Assembly: GCA_963833505.1 (NCBI GenBank)
Contig: CAWHYG010000007.1
Location: forward strand, 195,964-259,963
Direction: 5' to 3'
Source of the DNA: Candidatus Eiseniibacteriota bacterium
GTDB taxonomy: Bacteria; Eisenbacteria; RBG-16-71-46; CAIMUX01
DNA length: 64,000 nt
Shown here: piece after piece, positions 5,694 to 55,766 of the stretch
How positions within the stretch are numbered: position 1 is the stretch's first letter
Layout: every line of letters starts with the position of its first letter
The notes under the pieces: model-generated
The model's database searches: none
Told to the model about the DNA's origin: nothing
What the model saw: only the letters and a program-made list of their open reading frames with translations
Made by a program: the position numbers and the translations under genes

Positions 5694-6164
5694 GCCATGG
5701 CTTCACGGGTCGAACGGCCCGCCTGAGCCGTGGCTTCACGGGCCAAACGGCTTCAAACGCGGATGCCGGAATCGAGAAGGGGCCCGATCCGTGCGAACGG
5801 ATGGGCCCCGATTCTCTTTGTGCGGGCTTTCCGGGGCTTTGAGAGCCGCTTGTGGCGGCAGTCCAGGGGACCTCCGGGGATCGCCCGAATCCGAAGGTGC
5901 GTCCACCCCCGGTTCCGCGCTTCCCGAGCTGTGATGTCAAGAAGTCGGTGACGGGTCCCGGATTCTCTTGCGCCCCGCCGTTCCGAGCGCCGGCAGCGCT
6001 GCCGGCCCGGATCGATCGGTCCCATTCGACGATTCCGTTTTGGTCCGGAATCGCCGCCGGCCGCGACGCGGCGACAAGATGGGCGGGAAACTAGATGGGC
6101 CCCGGGCCCCTGTCAAGCGGCCTGTGAGCCAAAGCGCTTGTGCTCGATTCTCCCTGGATCGAGC

Positions 6165-7724
6165 ATGAGGGACATGGACCCGTCTTCTTTGCTCGACCGG
6201 ATCCACCTCGCGATGGTGGAGTCGGGAAGGACATGGCCGGCCGGCGAGCTGGCCCGGGAGTTTCTCCGGCTCACCGTGGATGGCCCTGCGCCCCAGGCCC
6301 TCATCCGCCGCATGTTGGCGGCTGATCGGCGCTTCGCCGAAGTCGCTCCCGGACAATGGGCCGCCCTTCGGAGGTCGAGCCTGCCTCTCGTGGATGGCGG
6401 CTATGTTCTCGCATGGGTCGAGATCGGGGAATCGCCATCTCCGGAGGGATGGCGGCTGCACCTTCGGCCCTACGAGCCGCGCAACCAGGGATCGGGGGGC
6501 GCTCCGGATTGCATCACGGTCACCTCAGGAGATCCCGATCATCTCGAGCGCGCTCGCCGGACCTGGGAAGGGCGCCGTCTGGCCACGTTCCAGTCCGGTC
6601 CGCTCGGCCGGTTCCTGCAATGGATGGAGCGTCGTTGGGGACTGGCGGAGTGGAGCTCGCCGCTGGTGGATCTGCAGGCCTGGGTCCGGGTGGCGTTGCT
6701 TCGAGAGGGGCTCGGTCCGGCGGAGACGCAAAAGGCGCTTCAGCTCTCCTCGTTGTCCGAGCGGTGGCGGCTGGGCCCGATGTCCGAACTGCCCCCCGGC
6801 GTGCCCCTGCCCGCGCTGTCCGCCGTGTTCGATCGGGTCTTGGAGCGATTCGGATCGTGGACGGAAGAGGCCATGGCCCGGGAGTGGGAGGAGGGCTTCG
6901 CTCCGCGACCCGTTCCTTGGGAACGATTCGCGTTTGATCCCGCGGAGGTCGAGGCGGTTCCCGATTCCCCGGGCATCTATCGTTTCTATGATGACCGGGA
7001 AACCCTGCTCTACGTCGGCAAAGCGGTGCGCCTTGCCCGGCGGGTCGGGTCGTACTTCCGGCCGCTGCCTCCGGAGTCGACCAAGAGGGAGCAACTCCTC
7101 CAGAAGATCCACCGGTTCGAGGTGGAGCCGCTGCCTTCGGAGCTGGAGGCGTTGGTTCGGGAGGCCGAGGCGATCCGACTGGCGCGGCCGCCGTGGAACG
7201 TGCAGGTCGAGATCCATCCGATCGAGCGGTTGTCTCCCGATTGGTGGTGGCCGCTGGTCTTCGTCGCGCCAGGAGAGGATCCCCTCAGGGTGTCCGCGTT
7301 CCTCGTGGCCGGGCCGGAACAGGCCTTCCTGATGCACCTGCCGAGGGAGGGACGAGCCGAGGAGCTGTGTGATCTCGCCGCCTGGCTGGATCAGCGGCTG
7401 GAAGACGGGGGAGATCCAGCGAGACGGGACGAGTCCTCCGACCGCAACGGGCCGCAGGCGGAACTCGTCCGCGACGGGGACATGGCGGATGCGGTCGATC
7501 GGTACACTCCGAAGGCGCTGGAGCCGCCGGAGGCCAGGCTAGTGCTGCGCTTCTATCTCCGGCAGCGGGATCTGTTGCACCGGGTCGAATCCGTGCACTT
7601 CACGAACGGCTTCGCGCTTCTCGAGGGTCTCCTGGCCCTGGCTCAGTCGGCGCCTCAGGGCTCTCCGATCGATCAGCGACCGTCGCGGCGTGGTCCGCTC
7701 GATTCTGCCGTCCGGAGTTCGTGA
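6165..7724 (+). CDS. GIY-YIG nuclease domain protein with large uncharacterised N- and C-terminal regions
   Basis: ORF 6138..7724; central motif PGIYRFYDDRETLLYVGKAVRLARRVGSYF ... EALVREAEAIRLARPPWNVQ matches the GIY-YIG (UvrC N-terminal-like) fold; start taken at the in-frame MRDMD. Confidence 0.6.
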   Translation: MRDMDPSSLLDRIHLAMVESGRTWPAGELAREFLRLTVDGPAPQALIRRMLAADRRFAEVAPGQWAALRRSSLPLVDGGYVLAWVEIGESPSPEGWRLHLRPYEPRNQGSGGAPDCITVTSGDPDHLERARRTWEGRRLATFQSGPLGRFLQWMERRWGLAEWSSPLVDLQAWVRVALLREGLGPAETQKALQLSSLSERWRLGPMSELPPGVPLPALSAVFDRVLERFGSWTEEAMAREWEEGFAPRPVPWERFAFDPAEVEAVPDSPGIYRFYDDRETLLYVGKAVRLARRVGSYFRPLPPESTKREQLLQKIHRFEVEPLPSELEALVREAEAIRLARPPWNVQVEIHPIERLSPDWWWPLVFVAPGEDPLRVSAFLVAGPEQAFLMHLPREGRAEELCDLAAWLDQRLEDGGDPARRDESSDRNGPQAELVRDGDMADAVDRYTPKALEPPEARLVLRFYLRQRDLLHRVESVHFTNGFALLEGLLALAQSAPQGSPIDQRPSRRGPLDSAVRSS

Positions 7725-7857
7725 TCCATGCTAGACTTCGTCGCGAATCGCATGCGCAGTTTGGGTGATCGGTTTCTGAAGAACGGCCGATACTCATAGC
7801 GGAAGGGCGGTCACGGTTCCCTTCCGCGCGCTCCGGCAATCCTGATCCCGGCCGTGT

Positions 7858-7890
7858 CATCCTACCCCGCAAGGGGTAGGATGGGTTTTT
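7858..7890 (+). terminator. intrinsic-terminator-like hairpin (11-bp perfect stem, GCAA tetraloop, then GGTTTTT) directly upstream of the arcC RBS
   Basis: catcctacccc-gcaa-ggggtaggatg followed by ggttttt; arcC RBS ggggagg and ATG 7903 follow immediately; a second hairpin cggaaggg...cccttccg lies at ~7800-7826. Confidence 0.5.
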
Positions 7891-7902
7891 GGGGAGGATT
7901 CG

Positions 7903-8865
7903 ATGACACGCACCGTGTTGCTCTCCCTGGGGGGCAACGCCATCCTTCCCGGCCGCGGCGCGGGAACAATCGGTGAGCAGTTCCGGGTCACCCAGGCTTC
8001 CATGACGCACGTTGCCGACCTGCTCGAGCAGGGCGTGCGCGTGATCCTGACCCACGGGAACGGTCCGATCGTCGGCAACATCCTCGTCCGGAATCAAATG
8101 GCTCGAGACCGGATCCCTCCCATGCCTCTCGACGTGTGCGGGGCCGATTCCCAGGGTGGCATCGGTTACATGATCCAGCAAACCCTGCAAAACATCCTGC
8201 GCGAGCGCCGGATCCCACGTCCGGTCACGACCGTGGTGACGCAGGTGGTCGTGGACGGGAACGATTCCGCCTTCACCCATCCGACCAAGCCGATCGGACC
8301 CTTCTACACCGAGGAGGAGGCCCGGAACCTGGAACGGCTGAACGGCTGGACGATGGCGGAGGACTCCGGACGCGGGATGCGCCGCGTCGTGCCGAGCCCG
8401 CGTCCGCTCAGGATCGTCGAGGAATCGGCGATCCGCGCGCTCTTCGAGGCCGGGCACGTCGTCATCGCGGCGGGGGGCGGCGGAATTCCTGTGCGGGAGG
8501 ACGGCGGCGCGCTGCGCGGGGTCGAGGCGGTCATCGACAAGGACCTCACGTCGGTGATCCTCGCCCTGGCGGTGAAGGTCGACACCTTGATCAACATCAC
8601 CGCGGTCGACCAGGTGCTGCTCGATTACGGCAAGCCCACCAGCCGGGCCGTTCCGCTTCTCACGATCGACGAAGCCAGACGCTACCTGGACGAGGGGCAG
8701 TTCCCCGAGGGCAGCATGGGTCCGAAGATCCGCGCCGCGATCCGCTTCCTGGAGGCGGGAGGACGCGAGGTGATCATCACGAGCCCTCCCGGAGTCCGGG
8801 AATCGCTGCGCGGTCGCGCCGGGACTCGGATCATCCCGGCCAGAGCCCAGGCGCCCGTTTCCTGA
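7903..8865 (+). CDS. arcC: carbamate kinase
   Basis: ORF 7903..8865, 320 aa; motifs LLSLGGNAI, THGNGPIVG, GSMGPKIRAA typical of carbamate kinase; RBS ggggagg upstream. Confidence 0.9.
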   Translation: MTRTVLLSLGGNAILPGRGAGTIGEQFRVTQASMTHVADLLEQGVRVILTHGNGPIVGNILVRNQMARDRIPPMPLDVCGADSQGGIGYMIQQTLQNILRERRIPRPVTTVVTQVVVDGNDSAFTHPTKPIGPFYTEEEARNLERLNGWTMAEDSGRGMRRVVPSPRPLRIVEESAIRALFEAGHVVIAAGGGGIPVREDGGALRGVEAVIDKDLTSVILALAVKVDTLINITAVDQVLLDYGKPTSRAVPLLTIDEARRYLDEGQFPEGSMGPKIRAAIRFLEAGGREVIITSPPGVRESLRGRAGTRIIPARAQAPVS

Positions 8866-23052: not shown

Positions 23053-23604
23053 GTGAACCCATCCGGGCCCTTCGTGCTGTCGCTGCACGACCTCGAAGAG
23101 GGGGAGACGCACCTGGAGATGGTCGGAACCGGTTCCGACCTGGAACTCTCGCGGGACGAGCTGGCGCTGTCCCAGCCGGTCGTGCTGCGCGCCAAGGTCT
23201 TCCGGGCCGCCTACCATGTGGAGGTCCAGGGGACCCTCCTGACGACCGCGGATCTGGTCTGTGATCGCTGTCTCGAACCGATCCGGCGCGCGCTCGAGAT
23301 CCCGTTTCGGGTATTCTCCGAGCGGCAGGAGACCCGGGACCACCGGACCAGACAGGAAATGCGTGAAGAGGATCCCGGGATCGTCTACCATGATGGGCAG
23401 TTTGTGGTTCTGACCGACGAAGTGAGACAGGAGCTTCTGGTGGAGAAGCCCTGGCACGTCGTCTGCCGGCCGGACTGCCTGGGGCTCTGCCCGCGCTGCG
23501 GAGGCAACCGCAACGTGAGCGGCTGCACCTGTCCGGATCGCCGGGATCAGGACAGCCCCGACGCGGAACGCATGGACTCGAAACCAAGAATTGAGTCGGA
23601 GTAG
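23053..23604 (+). CDS. yceD: YceD/DUF177 family protein (large-subunit rRNA accumulation factor)
   Basis: ORF 23053..23604, 183 aa; C-terminal CxxC...CxxC (CDRCLEP ... CLGLCPRCG); conserved position upstream of rpmF-plsX-fab operon. Confidence 0.8.
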   Translation: MNPSGPFVLSLHDLEEGETHLEMVGTGSDLELSRDELALSQPVVLRAKVFRAAYHVEVQGTLLTTADLVCDRCLEPIRRALEIPFRVFSERQETRDHRTRQEMREEDPGIVYHDGQFVVLTDEVRQELLVEKPWHVVCRPDCLGLCPRCGGNRNVSGCTCPDRRDQDSPDAERMDSKPRIESE

Positions 23605-25510
23605 GAACCATGGTCACCCATAGCCCCCTCCACAGAACCGGACGAGCGGGACTACCGCATCCGGCTCCCACCTTGGGTCATCACGCCCAGGCGCTGATTG
23701 GGCCAGGGTTGACAGATCCGGGGAATTGGGAGCCATTGAGTCACCAAGCGTTTCCATCGGACGACCGTGAGCCGCGTCGTCTGACTTCGGCGGCGGAGAC
23801 TCCGCCCCCATCGCCAGGACACCGCGTTGCGGAAGGCCGAGAGGGCCGGTCCGTTTCGAGGCACCCCGTAATAGCGGTAGTGCCCGAGCAGGACCGTCCG
23901 CAGGTAGGCTCCTTGGTCCGGGACGGGGTCGTGCAGTCGCCTCCGGAGTTCGCTGCCGATCTCCTTGAGCTTCGCCTGCCACCGCTTGCGCATCGTCTGC
24001 CGCAGCACCGTGAACTTCCCCCGCCGGGTCTTCCCGCAATGTGCGTGAAGCCAAGGAAGTTGAAGGTCGGGGGCTTCCCGTCCCCCCGATCGCGTCGGTT
24101 CTTCTCGGCGAAGCGACCGAACTCGATCAGGCGGGTCTTTTCCGGGTGCAGCTCCAGCCCGAACTTTGCGAAGCGTTCGCGCAGCTCGACCAGGAACCGC
24201 TCGGCCACGTCTCGATGCTGGAACCCAACCACGAAGTCATCGACAAAACGCACCACGACCACGTCGCCGCGCGCTTGCTTCGTTCTCCATCGCTGGATCC
24301 ACAGGTCGAGAGCATAGTGCAGGTAGACGTTGGCCAGGAGGGGACTGATCGACCCGCCCTGAACCGTGCCCACCCTCCCGGCGATGCGCTTCCCCTCCTC
24401 CAGCACGCCGGCCTTGAGCCACTTCAGGATCAAGCGCACGACCCGCTGGTCCGCGATCCGGTGCTCGATGAATTTCCGCAGCCATCCATGGTCGAGGGTA
24501 TCGAAGAACGACCGGATGTCGGCGTCGAGCACCCAGCTCACCTTCTTCCGTTCGATCCCGACCGTGAGTGCATCCAGCGCTTGATGCGGGCTGCGTCCCG
24601 GTCGGGAACCATAGGAAAATCCGAGGAAGTCGATTTCGTAGATGGCGTTCAACACCTCGACCACCGCACGCTGGACGATCTTGTCCTCCAGCGTCGGAAC
24701 TCCGAGCGGCCGCTGCCGCCCGTCGGTCTTGGGGATGTACGCTCGCCGAACCGGCTTCGCCCGATACGCTCCTCGCTTCAGCCTTTCGGAAAGGTCTCGG
24801 AGGTTCTCTTCCAAGTTTTCCCCGTAGTGCTGCCAGGTCTCGCCGTCGATTCCTGCCGCCGCGTTCTTCTTCAGGGCGAAGTAGCCCGCGCGCAGTCGAT
24901 CCACGTCGTAGACATGGTGCAGGAGCGTGGTGAACCGCTGTTTCCTGTCCTTTCTTGCCGCCTGTCGTACCCGCTCCAGTCCGCTGGGCACGCACTCCCG
25001 GCTCTGTGTCCGGTGCGTGTCGGCTTCGAGCGAGTTCCCCTTGGCCCGACCCCTTCCCTCCATCACCTCCGCCACCGGTCGCCCGGCACCGTTCGGCGAC
25101 TTCCCCGGTACTACGGGTCGGTCCGACCTCCCACCTTCGTCCATCATCGGCGTGCGCCTTTCGGCTTCCCGATGCGGTCTGGGCATACCCTGCTTCCAGA
25201 CGAGGGCGGGATCTCCCGGTTCCCATGCAAGGTGACTCCGAACGTGCTCAGGGCCTCTGACCGCGCGGGGTCCCTCGGCGTCTCGCCATGGCGACGCCCA
25301 GGGTGTGGCCTTCCGCTAACCTCCACAGCGTCGGCACCCCGAAGTGATTCATGGATTACGCGGCTCAATACCCGGCCCGCCCGTACCCCTGTCAACGCTT
25401 CACTCCCGGCCTCGCGGCCGACAGCGCATGACTCGGGGCCATCGTGGGTGGCTGGCCCTTCGATGTATGACTCTTTCATTCACTTCACCTCGCCGGTTTG
25501 ACCGGCGCAC
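23605..25510 (-). mobile_element. bacterial group II intron (~1.9 kb) in antisense orientation between yceD and rpmF
   Basis: Minus strand starts GTGCGCCGG (GUGYG 5' consensus) at 25510; domain-V-like hairpin GAGCCGGAUGCGG-UAGU-CCCGCUCGUCCGGUUC at 23635..23667 with AGC triad; encodes an RT/maturase ORF; 3' boundary approximate (+/-5 nt). Confidence 0.8.
23652..25186 (-). CDS. group II intron-encoded reverse transcriptase/maturase (apparent -1 frameshift after FLGFTHI, near 24010-24040)
   Basis: ORF 23741..25186 carries RT motifs (AAGIDGETW, RRAYIPKTDGRQRPLGVPTLEDKIVQ, VVRFVDDFVVGF, FLGFTHI); ORF 23652..24008 in another frame carries the maturase/X domain (LRQTMRKRWQAKLKEI ... LLGHYRYYGVP); junction reads attgcgggaagacc where ggaaag would restore the frame. 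Confidence 0.85.
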
Positions 25511-55227: not shown

Positions 55228-55766
55228 CAGCCCGATCCTCGCCCGACTGACGGTCCGTTCCGTCGGCGACTCCATCCTCCGATCGGCGATGGCCTGCCGG
55301 CCCTTTGCGCGCCTACCGGATCCGGCCCTCCGCGAACCGACGCGTGGGCCGAGGGTTCGAAACCGCCCCTTCGGAACGGCCGGGTCTCCGTCTGAGGTGG
55401 CCGTTCCCATCCGGCAGCCCCACGGGCCATGCCTCGAGGCTGAGCTATAGACATGATTGGCGGGCGCGAACGGTTCTGGCATACTGAGGAAGATGTTCCG
55501 TCCCGAACTGGCTCCCGGAAACTCCGGCGGGCCGGGGAGGTCGCAGCGACTCACATCTGCGGGGGATACCTGGTGGCCTAGGTTTTCCCATGGAGTCAGA
55601 ACCGACGGCTGGGGCCGTTGAGGAGCCTGCCGCCCCGTTTGATTTGGACGGGGGGCAGGGGGTCACTCTGCCCTTGCCACGGTGTCCGACCCTGTGTACG
55701 GTGAGACTGCGTGGACGGACGTCCACGTTTTTGTTTGAGCGGAGGTGTCTCTCCGGGGAGACTGGG

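What the first reader, a model, noticed from the sequence alone, without database searches (positions are those of the whole stretch)
7725..7902. arcC leader carries two strong hairpins, the second a terminator-like stem-loop with U-tract abutting the RBS
An 11-bp perfect stem with GNRA tetraloop followed by GGTTTTT ends about 5 nt before the arcC Shine-Dalgarno, and an 8-bp hairpin lies ~35 nt upstream. This could be the terminator of the upstream GIY-YIG gene, but its placement against the RBS suggests an attenuator or riboswitch-type expression platform controlling carbamate kinase.
Basis: seen in the sequence. Interest (0 to 1): 0.4.

Follow-up and report, generated by a model that had tools for sequence, protein, structure and literature searches.

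The report
Conserved two-hairpin leader before carbamate kinase
The two hairpins in front of the carbamate kinase gene are real and belong to a roughly 120-base leader kept in front of this gene across one group of uncultivated bacteria (Candidatus Eisenbacteria); it matches no described RNA family, is probably a gene-specific control element, and how it works is not settled.

Summary
Hairpin P2 (7857-7884) has 12 pairs, 11 of them perfect, with a GCAA loop. It is followed by G, then TTTTT, then the ribosome-binding site GGGGAGGA, with the arcC ATG at 7903. Hairpin P1 (7799-7827, 9 bp) lies 30 nt upstream.

This is not just the terminator of the upstream GIY-YIG gene. A 120-nt element (7784-7905) precedes arcC in 12 Eisenbacteria-like contigs, whether the upstream gene is an aminotransferase or the GIY-YIG gene. 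It occurs once in the window and matches no Rfam family.

- **P1** changes sequence but keeps its pairing: 4 of 8 pairs show compensatory changes.
- **P2** does the opposite. Its arms are 95-98% identical, compared with 80% at arcC codon positions 1+2 and 50% at position 3. Its loop varies freely, and 4 of its 5 arm substitutions give G·U pairs on the + strand.
- **TTT** after P2 is invariant.

The riboswitch-type reading is not supported:
- No alternative fold competes with P2 (15-23 kcal/mol penalty).
- Pairing of the ribosome-binding site with the upstream pyrimidine tract is no better than in shuffled controls.

My best guess (about 0.35) is a constitutive terminator-like attenuator or insulator. 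Read-through into arcC would be set by a factor that recognises the invariant helix. The rival explanations are a 3' end or small-RNA module of the upstream transcript, translational control, a DNA operator, and an RNA processing site.

The parts
6138..7724 (+). Upstream ORF, a GIY-YIG / UvrC-N-like nuclease-domain protein; the start codon is uncertain. In most relatives an aminotransferase gene lies between this gene and arcC. That gene is absent from the window.
   Evidence: Pfam GIY-YIG 22.8 bits. NCBIfam UvrC N-terminal-like matches. tblastn with the L099 homologue gives 35% identity over 6213-7307, and no aminotransferase hit anywhere in the window. Synteny.
7768..7791 (+). P0, a small predicted hairpin (ATCGG...CCGAT). 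It is variable in relatives and overlaps the start of the conserved block. Weak support.
   Evidence: MFE fold. The upstream part of alignment A2 is not conserved.
7784..7797 (+). Conserved 5' motif CGGCCGAUACUCAU (consensus GGYCGA-purine-rich, with CGA invariant). This is the 5' edge of the conserved leader.
   Evidence: Alignments A3 and A4. The covariance-model match starts at 7784.
7799..7827 (+). P1, a 9-bp hairpin (GCGGAAGGG / CCCTTCCGC) with an 11-nt loop that contains GGUCACGG.
   Evidence: Sequence. Folds of each relative. Four of 8 modelled pairs have compensatory changes, with many G·U pairs in + strand orientation; covariation score 0.175 against 0.127 +/- 0.012 in shuffles, 0 of 500 reaching it.
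7828..7856 (+). Pyrimidine-rich linker. It includes AATCCTGATCCC (7838-7849, complementary to the SD region) and CCGTG (7852-7856, complementary to CACGG in the P1 loop).
   Evidence: 84% pairwise identity within the window subtype, against 51% at arcC third codon positions. GATCCC is nearly invariant, unchanged in 10 of 12 leaders. Pairing with the SD appears in the MFE but is no better than for shuffled linkers. Pairing with the P1 loop is not significant in this subtype.
7857..7884 (+). P2, a 12-pair hairpin with an invariant stem sequence (CCAUCCUACCC / GGGUAGGAUGG in relatives) and a free loop (GCAA here).
   Evidence: Stem 99.2% paired across 12 sequences, with 0 compensatory and 4 one-sided changes, all G·U. 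Arms 95-98% identical and loop 23-33%. Free energy -20.8 to -24.9 kcal/mol in all 12.
7886..7890 (+). U-run (TTTTT) between P2 and the SD. A core TTT is invariant in all 12 leaders.
   Evidence: Invariant columns T104-T106 in A3. Between 3 and 6 U in the 8 nt after the stem across relatives.
7891..7898 (+). arcC Shine-Dalgarno region GGGGAGGA (GGAGG core 7893-7897, 5 nt before the ATG).
   Evidence: Sequence. Present in 11 of 12 leaders; in L090 an insertion displaces it.
7903..8865 (+). arcC, carbamate kinase, 320 aa.
   Evidence: TIGR00746 equivalog 379.3 bits against a cut-off of 358.25. Pfam AA_kinase.

Best explanation
Window 7784-7905 is a single-copy, arcC-specific leader element shared by one clade of Candidatus Eisenbacteria. 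It is read on the + strand.

It forms two hairpins that are always folded:
- P1 varies in sequence but keeps its pairing.
- P2 has an invariant stem sequence.

A conserved pyrimidine-rich linker joins them. An invariant U-run and the arcC ribosome-binding site follow.

I think it acts in cis as a terminator-type attenuator or insulator placed directly in front of arcC. P2 plus the U-run would stop or pause most transcripts arriving from the upstream genes. The amount of arcC made would then depend on read-through.

Because no competing RNA fold exists, read-through would have to be set by a trans-acting factor that recognises the invariant P2 helix and linker. That factor is most likely a protein. 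A metabolite-induced refolding of the leader is unlikely.

**Shown:** the anatomy, the linkage to arcC, the conservation pattern, and the absence of an alternative fold.
**Inferred:** termination, the dependence on read-through, and the existence of a factor.
For: **The leader belongs to arcC.**
- It lies immediately 5' of arcC in 12 contigs, behind two different upstream genes. The covariance model scores them at 67-114 bits.
- It occurs once in the window, even with search filters off.
- No full-length copy lies anywhere else in about 0.75 Mb of fetched loci; apart from two weak matches in arcC leaders of the other type, the remaining hits are lone P2-like hairpins.

**It is a + strand RNA structure.**
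- P1 has compensatory changes and many G·U pairs.
- Four of the 5 P2 arm substitutions are C>U or A>G changes that keep G·U pairing on the + strand.
- P2 loop length varies (3, 4 or 6 nt), and the window's extra length is a symmetric C-G pair.

**It is under selection.**
- P2 arms are 95-98% identical, against 80% at arcC codon positions 1+2 and 50% at position 3.
- The linker is 84% identical within the window subtype.

**It has terminator anatomy.**
- P2 is -21 to -25 kcal/mol in all 12 leaders, followed by an invariant UUU. Five of the 12, including the window, have at least 5 U in the next 8 nt.
- In L090 an insertion of about 130 nt separates the SD from the unit. The unit is kept intact through the U-run, so it ends there.
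- arcC relatives of the L003/L094/L095 type carry an ordinary GC hairpin plus T-run at the P1 position. A hairpin plus U-run between the aminotransferase gene and arcC is therefore a recurring theme.

**Transcripts must cross P2.**
- Only 7-10 nt separate P2 from the SD, which leaves no room for a promoter after the hairpin.
- No sigma-70-like promoter was found between 5500 and 10000.

**P2 is constitutive.** Blocking it costs 15-23 kcal/mol, and its 5' arm finds no alternative partner.
Against: - There are no transcript data. Termination, read-through and the transcription start are all inferred.
- In the L005 subtype the U-run is short (3-4 U) and often lies 3-4 nt from the stem, which makes a weak canonical terminator.
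- No candidate factor was identified. The conserved neighbours (GIY-YIG protein, aminotransferase) are not known RNA binders.
- Sequence-specific reading of a perfect A-form helix by a protein is uncommon, so invariance of a stem fits a DNA site more naturally.
- The data set is small: 12 sequences, 2 subtypes, one clade.
- arcC relatives 72-77% identical to the window's arcC do without the element (L092/93 and L096).
Confidence: 0.35

Rival explanations
1. It is the 3'-end module of the upstream transcript, or a small RNA. The unit from the 5' motif to the U-run would be a 3' UTR or a roughly 105-nt sRNA ending at the P2 terminator, with a C-rich single-stranded 'seed'. arcC would be transcribed from a promoter overlapping P2; the invariant 3' arm contains TAGGAT, which fits TANNNT.
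For: - In L090 the unit is kept intact up to the U-run after losing contact with the SD.
- P2 plus the U-run looks like a canonical terminator in the window.
- The pyrimidine-rich linker is conserved.
- TAGGAT is present in 11 of 12 P2 3' arms. If the 3' arm were fixed by promoter function and the 5' arm by pairing, the absence of covariation would be explained.
Against: - In 11 of 12 cases the unit ends 3-10 nt before the SD core. An independent gene would not need that spacing.
- There is no -35-like element at a constant distance, and the spacing to any upstream element changes with loop length.
- L102 has TGGGAT, which loses the key A.
- Transcription would start inside a T-run.
- The putative seed is less conserved than the terminator stem, the reverse of typical sRNAs.
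- No other copies or targets could be examined.
Confidence: 0.2
2. It is a translational riboregulator or riboswitch. The pyrimidine tract (7838-7849) would pair with the SD, with P2 acting as a clamp. A ligand or protein would bind the P1 domain (possibly a pseudoknot between the P1 loop and the linker) and release the SD.
For: - MFE folds pair the linker with the SD, enclosing P2, in 9 of the 10 full leaders with an adjacent SD, and also in the 5'-cut L102.
- AAUCCU/AGGAUU in the window becomes CCAUCCU/AGGAUGG in L001, a compensatory change.
- In the L005 subtype the P1 loop GAUCC is complementary to GGAUC. In 4 of the 5 leaders the best-matching partner ends exactly 10 nt before P2; per-sequence p is 0.004-0.13.
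- P1 covaries like an aptamer stem.
Against: - The linker:SD duplex is no better than with shuffled linkers of the same composition (z from -2.2 to +0.8).
- SD opening energy is 7.1 kcal/mol against 6.0 in arcC relatives without the leader (p = 0.07).
- P1-loop pairing is not significant in the window subtype.
- P1 loops differ between the subtypes, so there is no conserved aptamer core (15% identity).
- No alternative fold competes with P2.
- There is no Rfam match.
- L090 keeps the unit without an adjacent SD.
Confidence: 0.15
3. It is a DNA operator. The P2 inverted repeat (CCATCCTACCC-N-GGGTAGGATGG) would be the binding site of a dimeric transcription factor controlling an arcC promoter, and the hairpin potential would be incidental.
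For: - Both arms are invariant in sequence, with no compensatory change in 12 sequences, while neighbouring P1 covaries. This is the classic footprint of a protein-DNA site.
- The site is more conserved than the coding sequence.
Against: - The spacer between the arms is 3, 4 or 6 bp, and the window's longer version is a symmetric extra C-G pair. That preserves a hairpin, not half-site phasing.
- Four of 5 arm substitutions are exactly those that keep G·U pairs on the + strand.
- The invariant T-run lies on one side only.
- No promoter was found.
- No regulator gene is in conserved synteny.
Confidence: 0.12
4. It is an RNA processing or stability element. The linker:SD helix plus P2 would form a double-stranded region of about 20 bp with an internal loop, cut by RNase III or a similar enzyme. 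Cleavage would separate arcC from the upstream mRNA and leave P2 as a protective 3' hairpin.
For: - The long irregular hairpin is predicted in most leaders. It is hairpin-like enough to give chance matches to microRNA-precursor models.
- It sits between cistrons in most relatives.
Against: - This does not explain the invariant P2 sequence, since such enzymes read shape rather than sequence.
- The lower helix is not supported statistically.
Confidence: 0.08

Closest known systems
Intrinsic (Rho-independent) terminators used as 5'-leader attenuators
   Same: A G+C-rich hairpin of -21 to -25 kcal/mol followed by a U-run, placed between an upstream transcription unit and the regulated gene's ribosome-binding site.
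   Different: The stem sequence is invariant over a divergence that saturates synonymous sites. No anti-terminator alternative exists. The U-run is short in half of the members.
Protein-dependent attenuation leaders, such as the E. coli S10 operon leader with L4, PyrR or TRAP (my own knowledge, not tested here)
   Same: Two hairpins sit just upstream of the first gene. The distal one is a terminator next to the ribosome-binding site, and its efficiency is set by a protein rather than a metabolite-induced refold.
   Different: No sequence or Rfam similarity was found; no PyrR, T-box or ribosomal-leader model matched at E <= 10. No partner protein is known, and the regulated gene is a catabolic kinase.
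Riboswitches that hide the ribosome-binding site (small pseudoknot classes such as preQ1 or SAM-II)
   Same: A pyrimidine tract complementary to the SD lies upstream, and one subtype may form a pseudoknot between a loop and the linker.
   Different: No conserved aptamer core, no significant SD occlusion, no alternative fold, and no Rfam hit.
Guanidine-II (mini-ykkC) riboswitch
   Same: Two small hairpins lie upstream of a ribosome-binding site in nitrogen-related metabolism, and the P1 loop of the window subtype contains ACGG.
   Different: The defining ACGR tetraloops on both hairpins are absent. The P1 loop is 7-11 nt, and the P2 loop is GCAA here and variable elsewhere. No model matched.
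Segmental control within arc operons, such as arcDABC mRNA processing in Pseudomonas aeruginosa (my own knowledge, not tested here)
   Same: Post-transcriptional elements between cistrons set the relative expression of arginine-catabolism genes.
   Different: The organism, gene order and elements differ. No sequence relationship was examined or expected.

Membership tests
Any described RNA family (Rfam 15) | Match to a covariance model at or near its gathering score | tested here: not met
   Window 7000-8600 gave only Atu_C7 at 15 bits against a gathering score of 45, E = 1, driven by the terminator-like hairpin. The L005 and L001 leaders gave only chance microRNA/sRNA matches below 19 bits. 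The whole-window gathering scan found only a group II intron.
Intrinsic terminator | Stable G+C-rich stem-loop | tested here: met
   12 pairs, 7 of them G-C. Free energy -20.8 to -24.9 kcal/mol in all 12 relatives.
Intrinsic terminator | U-tract directly after the stem | tested here: inconclusive
   The window has G + UUUUU. Five of 12 leaders have at least 5 U in 8 nt, and the others have 3-4 U, some 3-4 nt from the stem. UUU is invariant.
Intrinsic terminator | Transcripts actually end there | not testable with these tools
   No transcript data are available.
Riboswitch | Conserved ligand-binding core with covarying stems | tested here: inconclusive
   P1 covaries. Its loop differs between the subtypes (GGUCACGG against GAUCC; 15% identity). 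Only CGA in the 5' motif is invariant, and GAUCCC is nearly so.
Riboswitch | Expression platform with mutually exclusive folds | tested here: not met
   Blocking P2 costs 15-23 kcal/mol. If the 5' arm is blocked, the 3' arm pairs with the linker and again forms a hairpin before the U-run.
Riboswitch | Binds a small molecule | not testable with these tools
   This needs in-line probing or ITC.
Guanidine-II (mini-ykkC) | Two hairpins, each capped by an ACGR tetraloop | tested here: not met
   The P1 loop is 7-11 nt. The P2 loop is GCAA, CUCA, CCC and others. No model hit.
Leader-peptide attenuator | Conserved short ORF with regulatory codons upstream of the terminator | tested here: not met
   By my reading of the printed sequence, about 45 nt separate the aminotransferase stop codon from the 5' motif in L005. 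The region upstream of the motif is not conserved. Indels in the loop and spacer are not multiples of 3.
Transcription-factor operator (inverted repeat) | Sequence-conserved symmetric half-sites | tested here: met
   Arms 95-98% identical with no compensatory change.
Transcription-factor operator (inverted repeat) | Fixed spacing between half-sites; no strand bias in substitutions | tested here: not met
   The spacer is 3 bp in 2 leaders, 4 bp in 9 and 6 bp in 1. Four of 5 substitutions keep G·U pairs on the + strand only. The sample is small, so this is not decisive.
Repeated extragenic palindrome / miniature mobile element | Many copies per genome | tested here: not met
   One copy in 64 kb. 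No full-length copy elsewhere in about 0.75 Mb of related loci. The P2 pattern gave only 8 metagenome hits, 3 of them arcC leaders.

The most novel reading that the evidence does not exclude
This could be a previously undescribed class of regulatory RNA dedicated to carbamate kinase in an uncultivated phylum. Its key element would be an 11-bp helix read sequence-specifically, by a dedicated RNA-binding protein (possibly ArcC itself or a pathway enzyme) or through an unusual tertiary or ligand contact. That reading would couple arcC expression to arginine or carbamoyl-phosphate status.
Probability: 0.2. Interest if true: 0.65.

Novelty: new member of a known kind. Interest (0 to 1): 0.45.

Why it matters
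Carbamate kinase makes ATP from carbamoyl phosphate, the last step of fermentative arginine, agmatine or ureide breakdown. Nothing is known about gene regulation in Candidatus Eisenbacteria.

A gene-specific leader conserved more strongly than the enzyme's own coding sequence marks a control point that can be tested directly. Suitable tests are in vitro transcription, binding assays and reporter fusions.

The pattern is also unusual. An invariant stem next to a freely covarying one points to a sequence-specific partner that could be fished out using the hairpin as bait.

If the element turns out to be an ordinary leaky terminator, it is still useful. It shows that a stem-loop abutting a ribosome-binding site need not be a riboswitch platform.

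Tried and rejected
- **Known RNA families.** Three permissive Rfam scans and one whole-window scan found nothing relevant.
- **SD sequestration as the mechanism.** It is attractive in MFE folds but fails two controls: shuffled linkers and opening energy compared with relatives lacking the leader.
- **Pseudoknot between the P1 loop and the linker.** It is suggestive only in the L005 subtype and not significant in the window's subtype.
- **A closing helix between the 5' motif (GGCCG) and CGGCC after P1.** It would be only 3-5 G-C pairs, and the register differs between subtypes. I judged this by eye and consider it unsupported.
- **Intrinsic anti-terminator.** None was found.
- **Leader peptide.** No conserved ORF exists.
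- **Sigma-70 or sigma-54 promoter in the leader.** The scan found none. By eye, GGCA...TGC has the wrong spacing for sigma-54, and only TAGGAT inside P2 resembles a -10 element.
- **Repeat or mobile element.** The element is single-copy.
- **P2-like hairpins elsewhere.** Metagenome loci L082/L086, L083, L084 and L087 and viral contigs L103-L108 are lone hairpins in unrelated contexts; the gene context was read only for L082 (a MoxR-like ATPase) and L087 (a small ORF). Their number is about what chance would give.
- **Literature.** A full-text search for carbamate kinase, arcC and riboswitch found no described arcC leader RNA.

Full report
**What is in the window.**
- The intergenic region 7725-7902 lies between a GIY-YIG-domain ORF (6138-7724, +) and arcC (7903-8865, +). 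The arcC product passes the curated carbamate kinase model (TIGR00746, 379 bits against a cut-off of 358).
- The second hairpin (P2) is CATCCTACCCC-GCAA-GGGGTAGGATG at 7858-7883, extended by U7857·G7884. It is followed by G, TTTTT (7886-7890), GGGGAGGA (7891-7898) and the ATG at 7903.
- The first hairpin (P1) is GCGGAAGGG / CCCTTCCGC at 7799-7827, with an 11-nt loop.
- The consensus scan calls P2 a terminator-like site with 12 pairs. Its sequence is unique in the window.
- The region folds better than shuffles (z = -2.36).
P1 has 9 bp, not 8. The gap between the hairpins is 30 nt. The distance from the P2 stem to the GGAGG core is 8-9 nt.

**Relatives.**
- A protein-guided scan of one genome per species showed that the closest arcC genes come from Candidatus Eisenbacteria assemblies.
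- The arcC upstream regions of L001, L002 and L005 (76, 74 and 65% protein identity) carry the same two hairpins.
- A scan of metagenome contigs for the P2 sequence added L081 and L085/L088.
- Look-ups of contigs encoding close ArcC proteins added L089, L090/L091, L098, L099, L100 and L102.
- A covariance model built from the first eight sequences (R1) scores all twelve between 67 and 114 bits. It finds no other full-length copy in about 0.75 Mb of fetched loci, or in the 64-kb window with filters off.
- The element sits behind an aminotransferase gene in L005, L089, L090, L098 and L100. It sits directly behind the GIY-YIG gene in the window and L099. The window has no aminotransferase homologue at all.
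- The leader therefore travels with arcC, not with the upstream gene.
- It is not universal. arcC relatives of similar closeness lack it:
  - L092/93, L096 and L097 lack it (L097 has only 27 nt between the two genes). L004 has the same upstream sequence as L096.
  - L003, L094 and L095 have an ordinary GC hairpin plus T-run, then 45-75 nt.

**Conservation pattern.** On the model-based alignment (A4) the two hairpins behave in opposite ways.
- P1 keeps its pairing while changing sequence. Four of 8 modelled pairs show compensatory changes and many cells are G·U. The covariation score is 0.175 against 0.127 +/- 0.012 in shuffles, with 0 of 500 reaching it.
- P2 keeps its sequence. It has 11 pairs, 99.2% of cells paired, no compensatory change and four one-sided changes, all G·U.

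Pairwise identity by segment:

| Segment | Pairwise identity |
|---|---|
| P2 arms | 95-98% |
| arcC codon positions 1+2 | 80% |
| arcC codon position 3 (saturated; GC3 is 85%) | 50% |
| P2 loop | 23-33% |
| Linker, within the window subtype | 84% |
| Linker, between subtypes | 44% |

- A TTT just after P2 is invariant in all 12 leaders; GATCCC in the linker is unchanged in 10 of 12.
- There are two subtypes. The window type has the P1 loop GGUCACGG and the linker ...GGCAAUCCUGAUCCCUGCCCGUG. The L005 type has the P1 loop GAUCC and the linker ...CGGAUCCCUUCCCAA.

**RNA or DNA?** Several points favour a + strand RNA hairpin over a DNA operator.
- P1 next door is clearly an RNA hairpin in + orientation, because its G·U pairs would be C·A mismatches on the other strand.
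- Of five substitutions in the P2 arms, four are C>U in the 5' arm (window, L089, L090) or A>G in the 3' arm (L102). These are exactly the changes that keep a wobble pair on the + strand.
- The P2 loop is 3, 4 or 6 nt long, and the window's extra length is a symmetric C-G pair.
- The invariant T-run lies on one side only.
- None of this is decisive with 12 sequences. An invariant inverted repeat is also what a transcription-factor site looks like, so I keep that as a rival at 0.12.

**Tests of the riboswitch / expression-platform reading.**
- No Rfam family matches the window, L005 or L001 leaders, even at E <= 10. A full-text literature search found no described arcC leader RNA.
- MFE folds do pair the pyrimidine tract 7838-7849 with the SD around P2, in the window and in most relatives. 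One compensatory change exists: AAUCCU/AGGAUU in the window becomes CCAUCCU/AGGAUGG in L001.
- However, the linker:SD duplex is no more stable than with shuffled linkers of the same composition (z from -2.2 to +0.8).
- The energy needed to open the SD is 7.1 kcal/mol, against 6.0 in arcC relatives without the leader (p = 0.07). SD occlusion is therefore compatible with the data but not demonstrated.
- A pseudoknot between the P1 loop and the linker is suggestive only in the L005 subtype. There GAUCC faces GGAUC, ending 10 nt before P2 in 4 of the 5 leaders, with per-sequence p of 0.004-0.13. It is not supported in the window's subtype.
- No alternative fold competes with P2. Forbidding its 3' arm costs 15-23 kcal/mol and leaves the 5' arm without a partner. 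If the 5' arm is forbidden, the 3' arm pairs with the linker and again forms a hairpin before the U-run.
- P2 is therefore a constitutive hairpin, not one state of a switch.

**What it most likely does.**
- P2 is a -21 to -25 kcal/mol hairpin in every member, followed by a U-run. The window and four other members have at least 5 U in the next 8 nt; the others have 3-4.
- In L090 an insertion of about 130 nt separates the U-run from the SD. The block from the 5' motif through the U-run is kept intact, so the functional unit seems to end at the U-run.
- Related arcC loci of another type have a plain hairpin plus T-run at the P1 position. A terminator-like signal between the upstream gene and arcC is therefore a recurring feature.
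- Only 7-10 nt separate P2 from the SD, and no promoter-like site was found. arcC transcripts presumably have to pass through P2.
- Together this favours a terminator-type attenuator or insulator in front of arcC.
- Since the RNA offers no competing fold, read-through would have to be set by a trans-acting factor. The near-absolute conservation of the stem sequence is best explained by such a sequence-specific partner, most likely a protein.
- The termination step, the read-through dependence and the factor are all inferences. I put this model at 0.35.
- The rivals are:
  - a 3'-end or small-RNA module with a promoter overlapping P2, since TAGGAT sits in the invariant arm (0.2);
  - translational control or a riboswitch (0.15);
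  - a DNA operator (0.12);
  - a processing or stability site (0.08).

**Comparison with known systems.**
- In anatomy it resembles protein-dependent attenuation leaders such as the E. coli S10 leader (my own knowledge). These have two hairpins, the distal one a terminator next to the ribosome-binding site.
- It is not a member of any described family. The defining features of riboswitch platforms (alternative folds), guanidine-II (ACGR tetraloops), leader-peptide attenuators (a leader ORF) and repeat elements (many copies) were tested and not met.
- It is best filed as a new, clade-restricted member of the broad kind 'cis-acting structured 5' leaders'. Its unusual trait is an invariant helix.

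**Limits.**
- The set holds twelve sequences in two subtypes from one clade.
- There are no transcript data.

Noticed in passing
window 23595-25474 (-): Group II intron. Rfam matches domains D1-D4 (RF02005, 185.6 bits, 25251-25474) and the catalytic domain (RF00029, 45.5 bits, 23595-23669). The stretch between them could encode the intron protein.
   Followed up: no
window 6138-7903; loci L089, L090, L098, L100: The conserved gene order in relatives is GIY-YIG protein, then aminotransferase, then leader and arcC. The window and L099 have lost the aminotransferase gene but kept the leader. tblastn finds no aminotransferase homologue anywhere in the 64-kb window.
   Followed up: yes
L090 2936-3130 (same in L091): About 130 nt are inserted between the U-run after P2 and the arcC ribosome-binding site. 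The canonical ATG position reads CTG, and the gene caller extends the ORF to an upstream ATG (345 aa). The true start and the origin of the insert are unknown.
   Followed up: partly
L081 (- strand), arcC start: The position of the arcC start codon reads ACG instead of ATG, behind a normal SD (GGGAGGAGGAG). The 354-aa protein P0030, whose longest contig has the same length as L081 (1754 nt), probably corresponds to this gene with the call extended about 34 codons upstream through the leader. It could be a sequencing error, a non-canonical start or a decaying gene.
   Followed up: no
L096 (same sequence in L004), about 75 nt upstream of arcC: This arcC relative lacks P2, but its short intergenic region keeps linker-like words (CCGGAUCC...GCAAUCCAGG; compare CCGGCCAUCCAGG in L100). 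L010, another relative without P2, has a different hairpin with GAUCCC in its loop, followed by a U-rich stretch and the SD. The GAUCC/AAUCC words may be older and more widespread than P2.
   Followed up: partly
window 7838-7849 and P1 loops of relatives: UGAUCC in the linker is the exact complement of GGAUCA, which I recall as part of the usual bacterial 16S rRNA 3' tail. The L005-type box GGAUCCCUUCCC resembles that tail itself (GGAUCACCUCCU, 9 of 12). No rRNA gene is in the window, so this could not be checked against the organism's own 16S.
   Followed up: no
window 5779-5818 (+) and 55709-55736 (+): Two other strong hairpins followed by T-rich runs: GGGGCCCGATCCGTGCGAACGGATGGGCCCC + ATTCTCTT, and ACGTGGACGGACGTCCACGT + TTTTGTTT. 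They suggest this organism uses canonical intrinsic terminators.
   Followed up: no
L082/L086, L083, L084, L087; viral loci L103-L108: Hairpins nearly identical to P2 (CCATCCTACCC...GGGTAGGATGG) occur in unrelated organisms and contexts. One lies about 55 nt upstream of a MoxR-like ATPase gene in L082. Their number is about what chance gives for palindromic terminator-like hairpins.
   Followed up: partly
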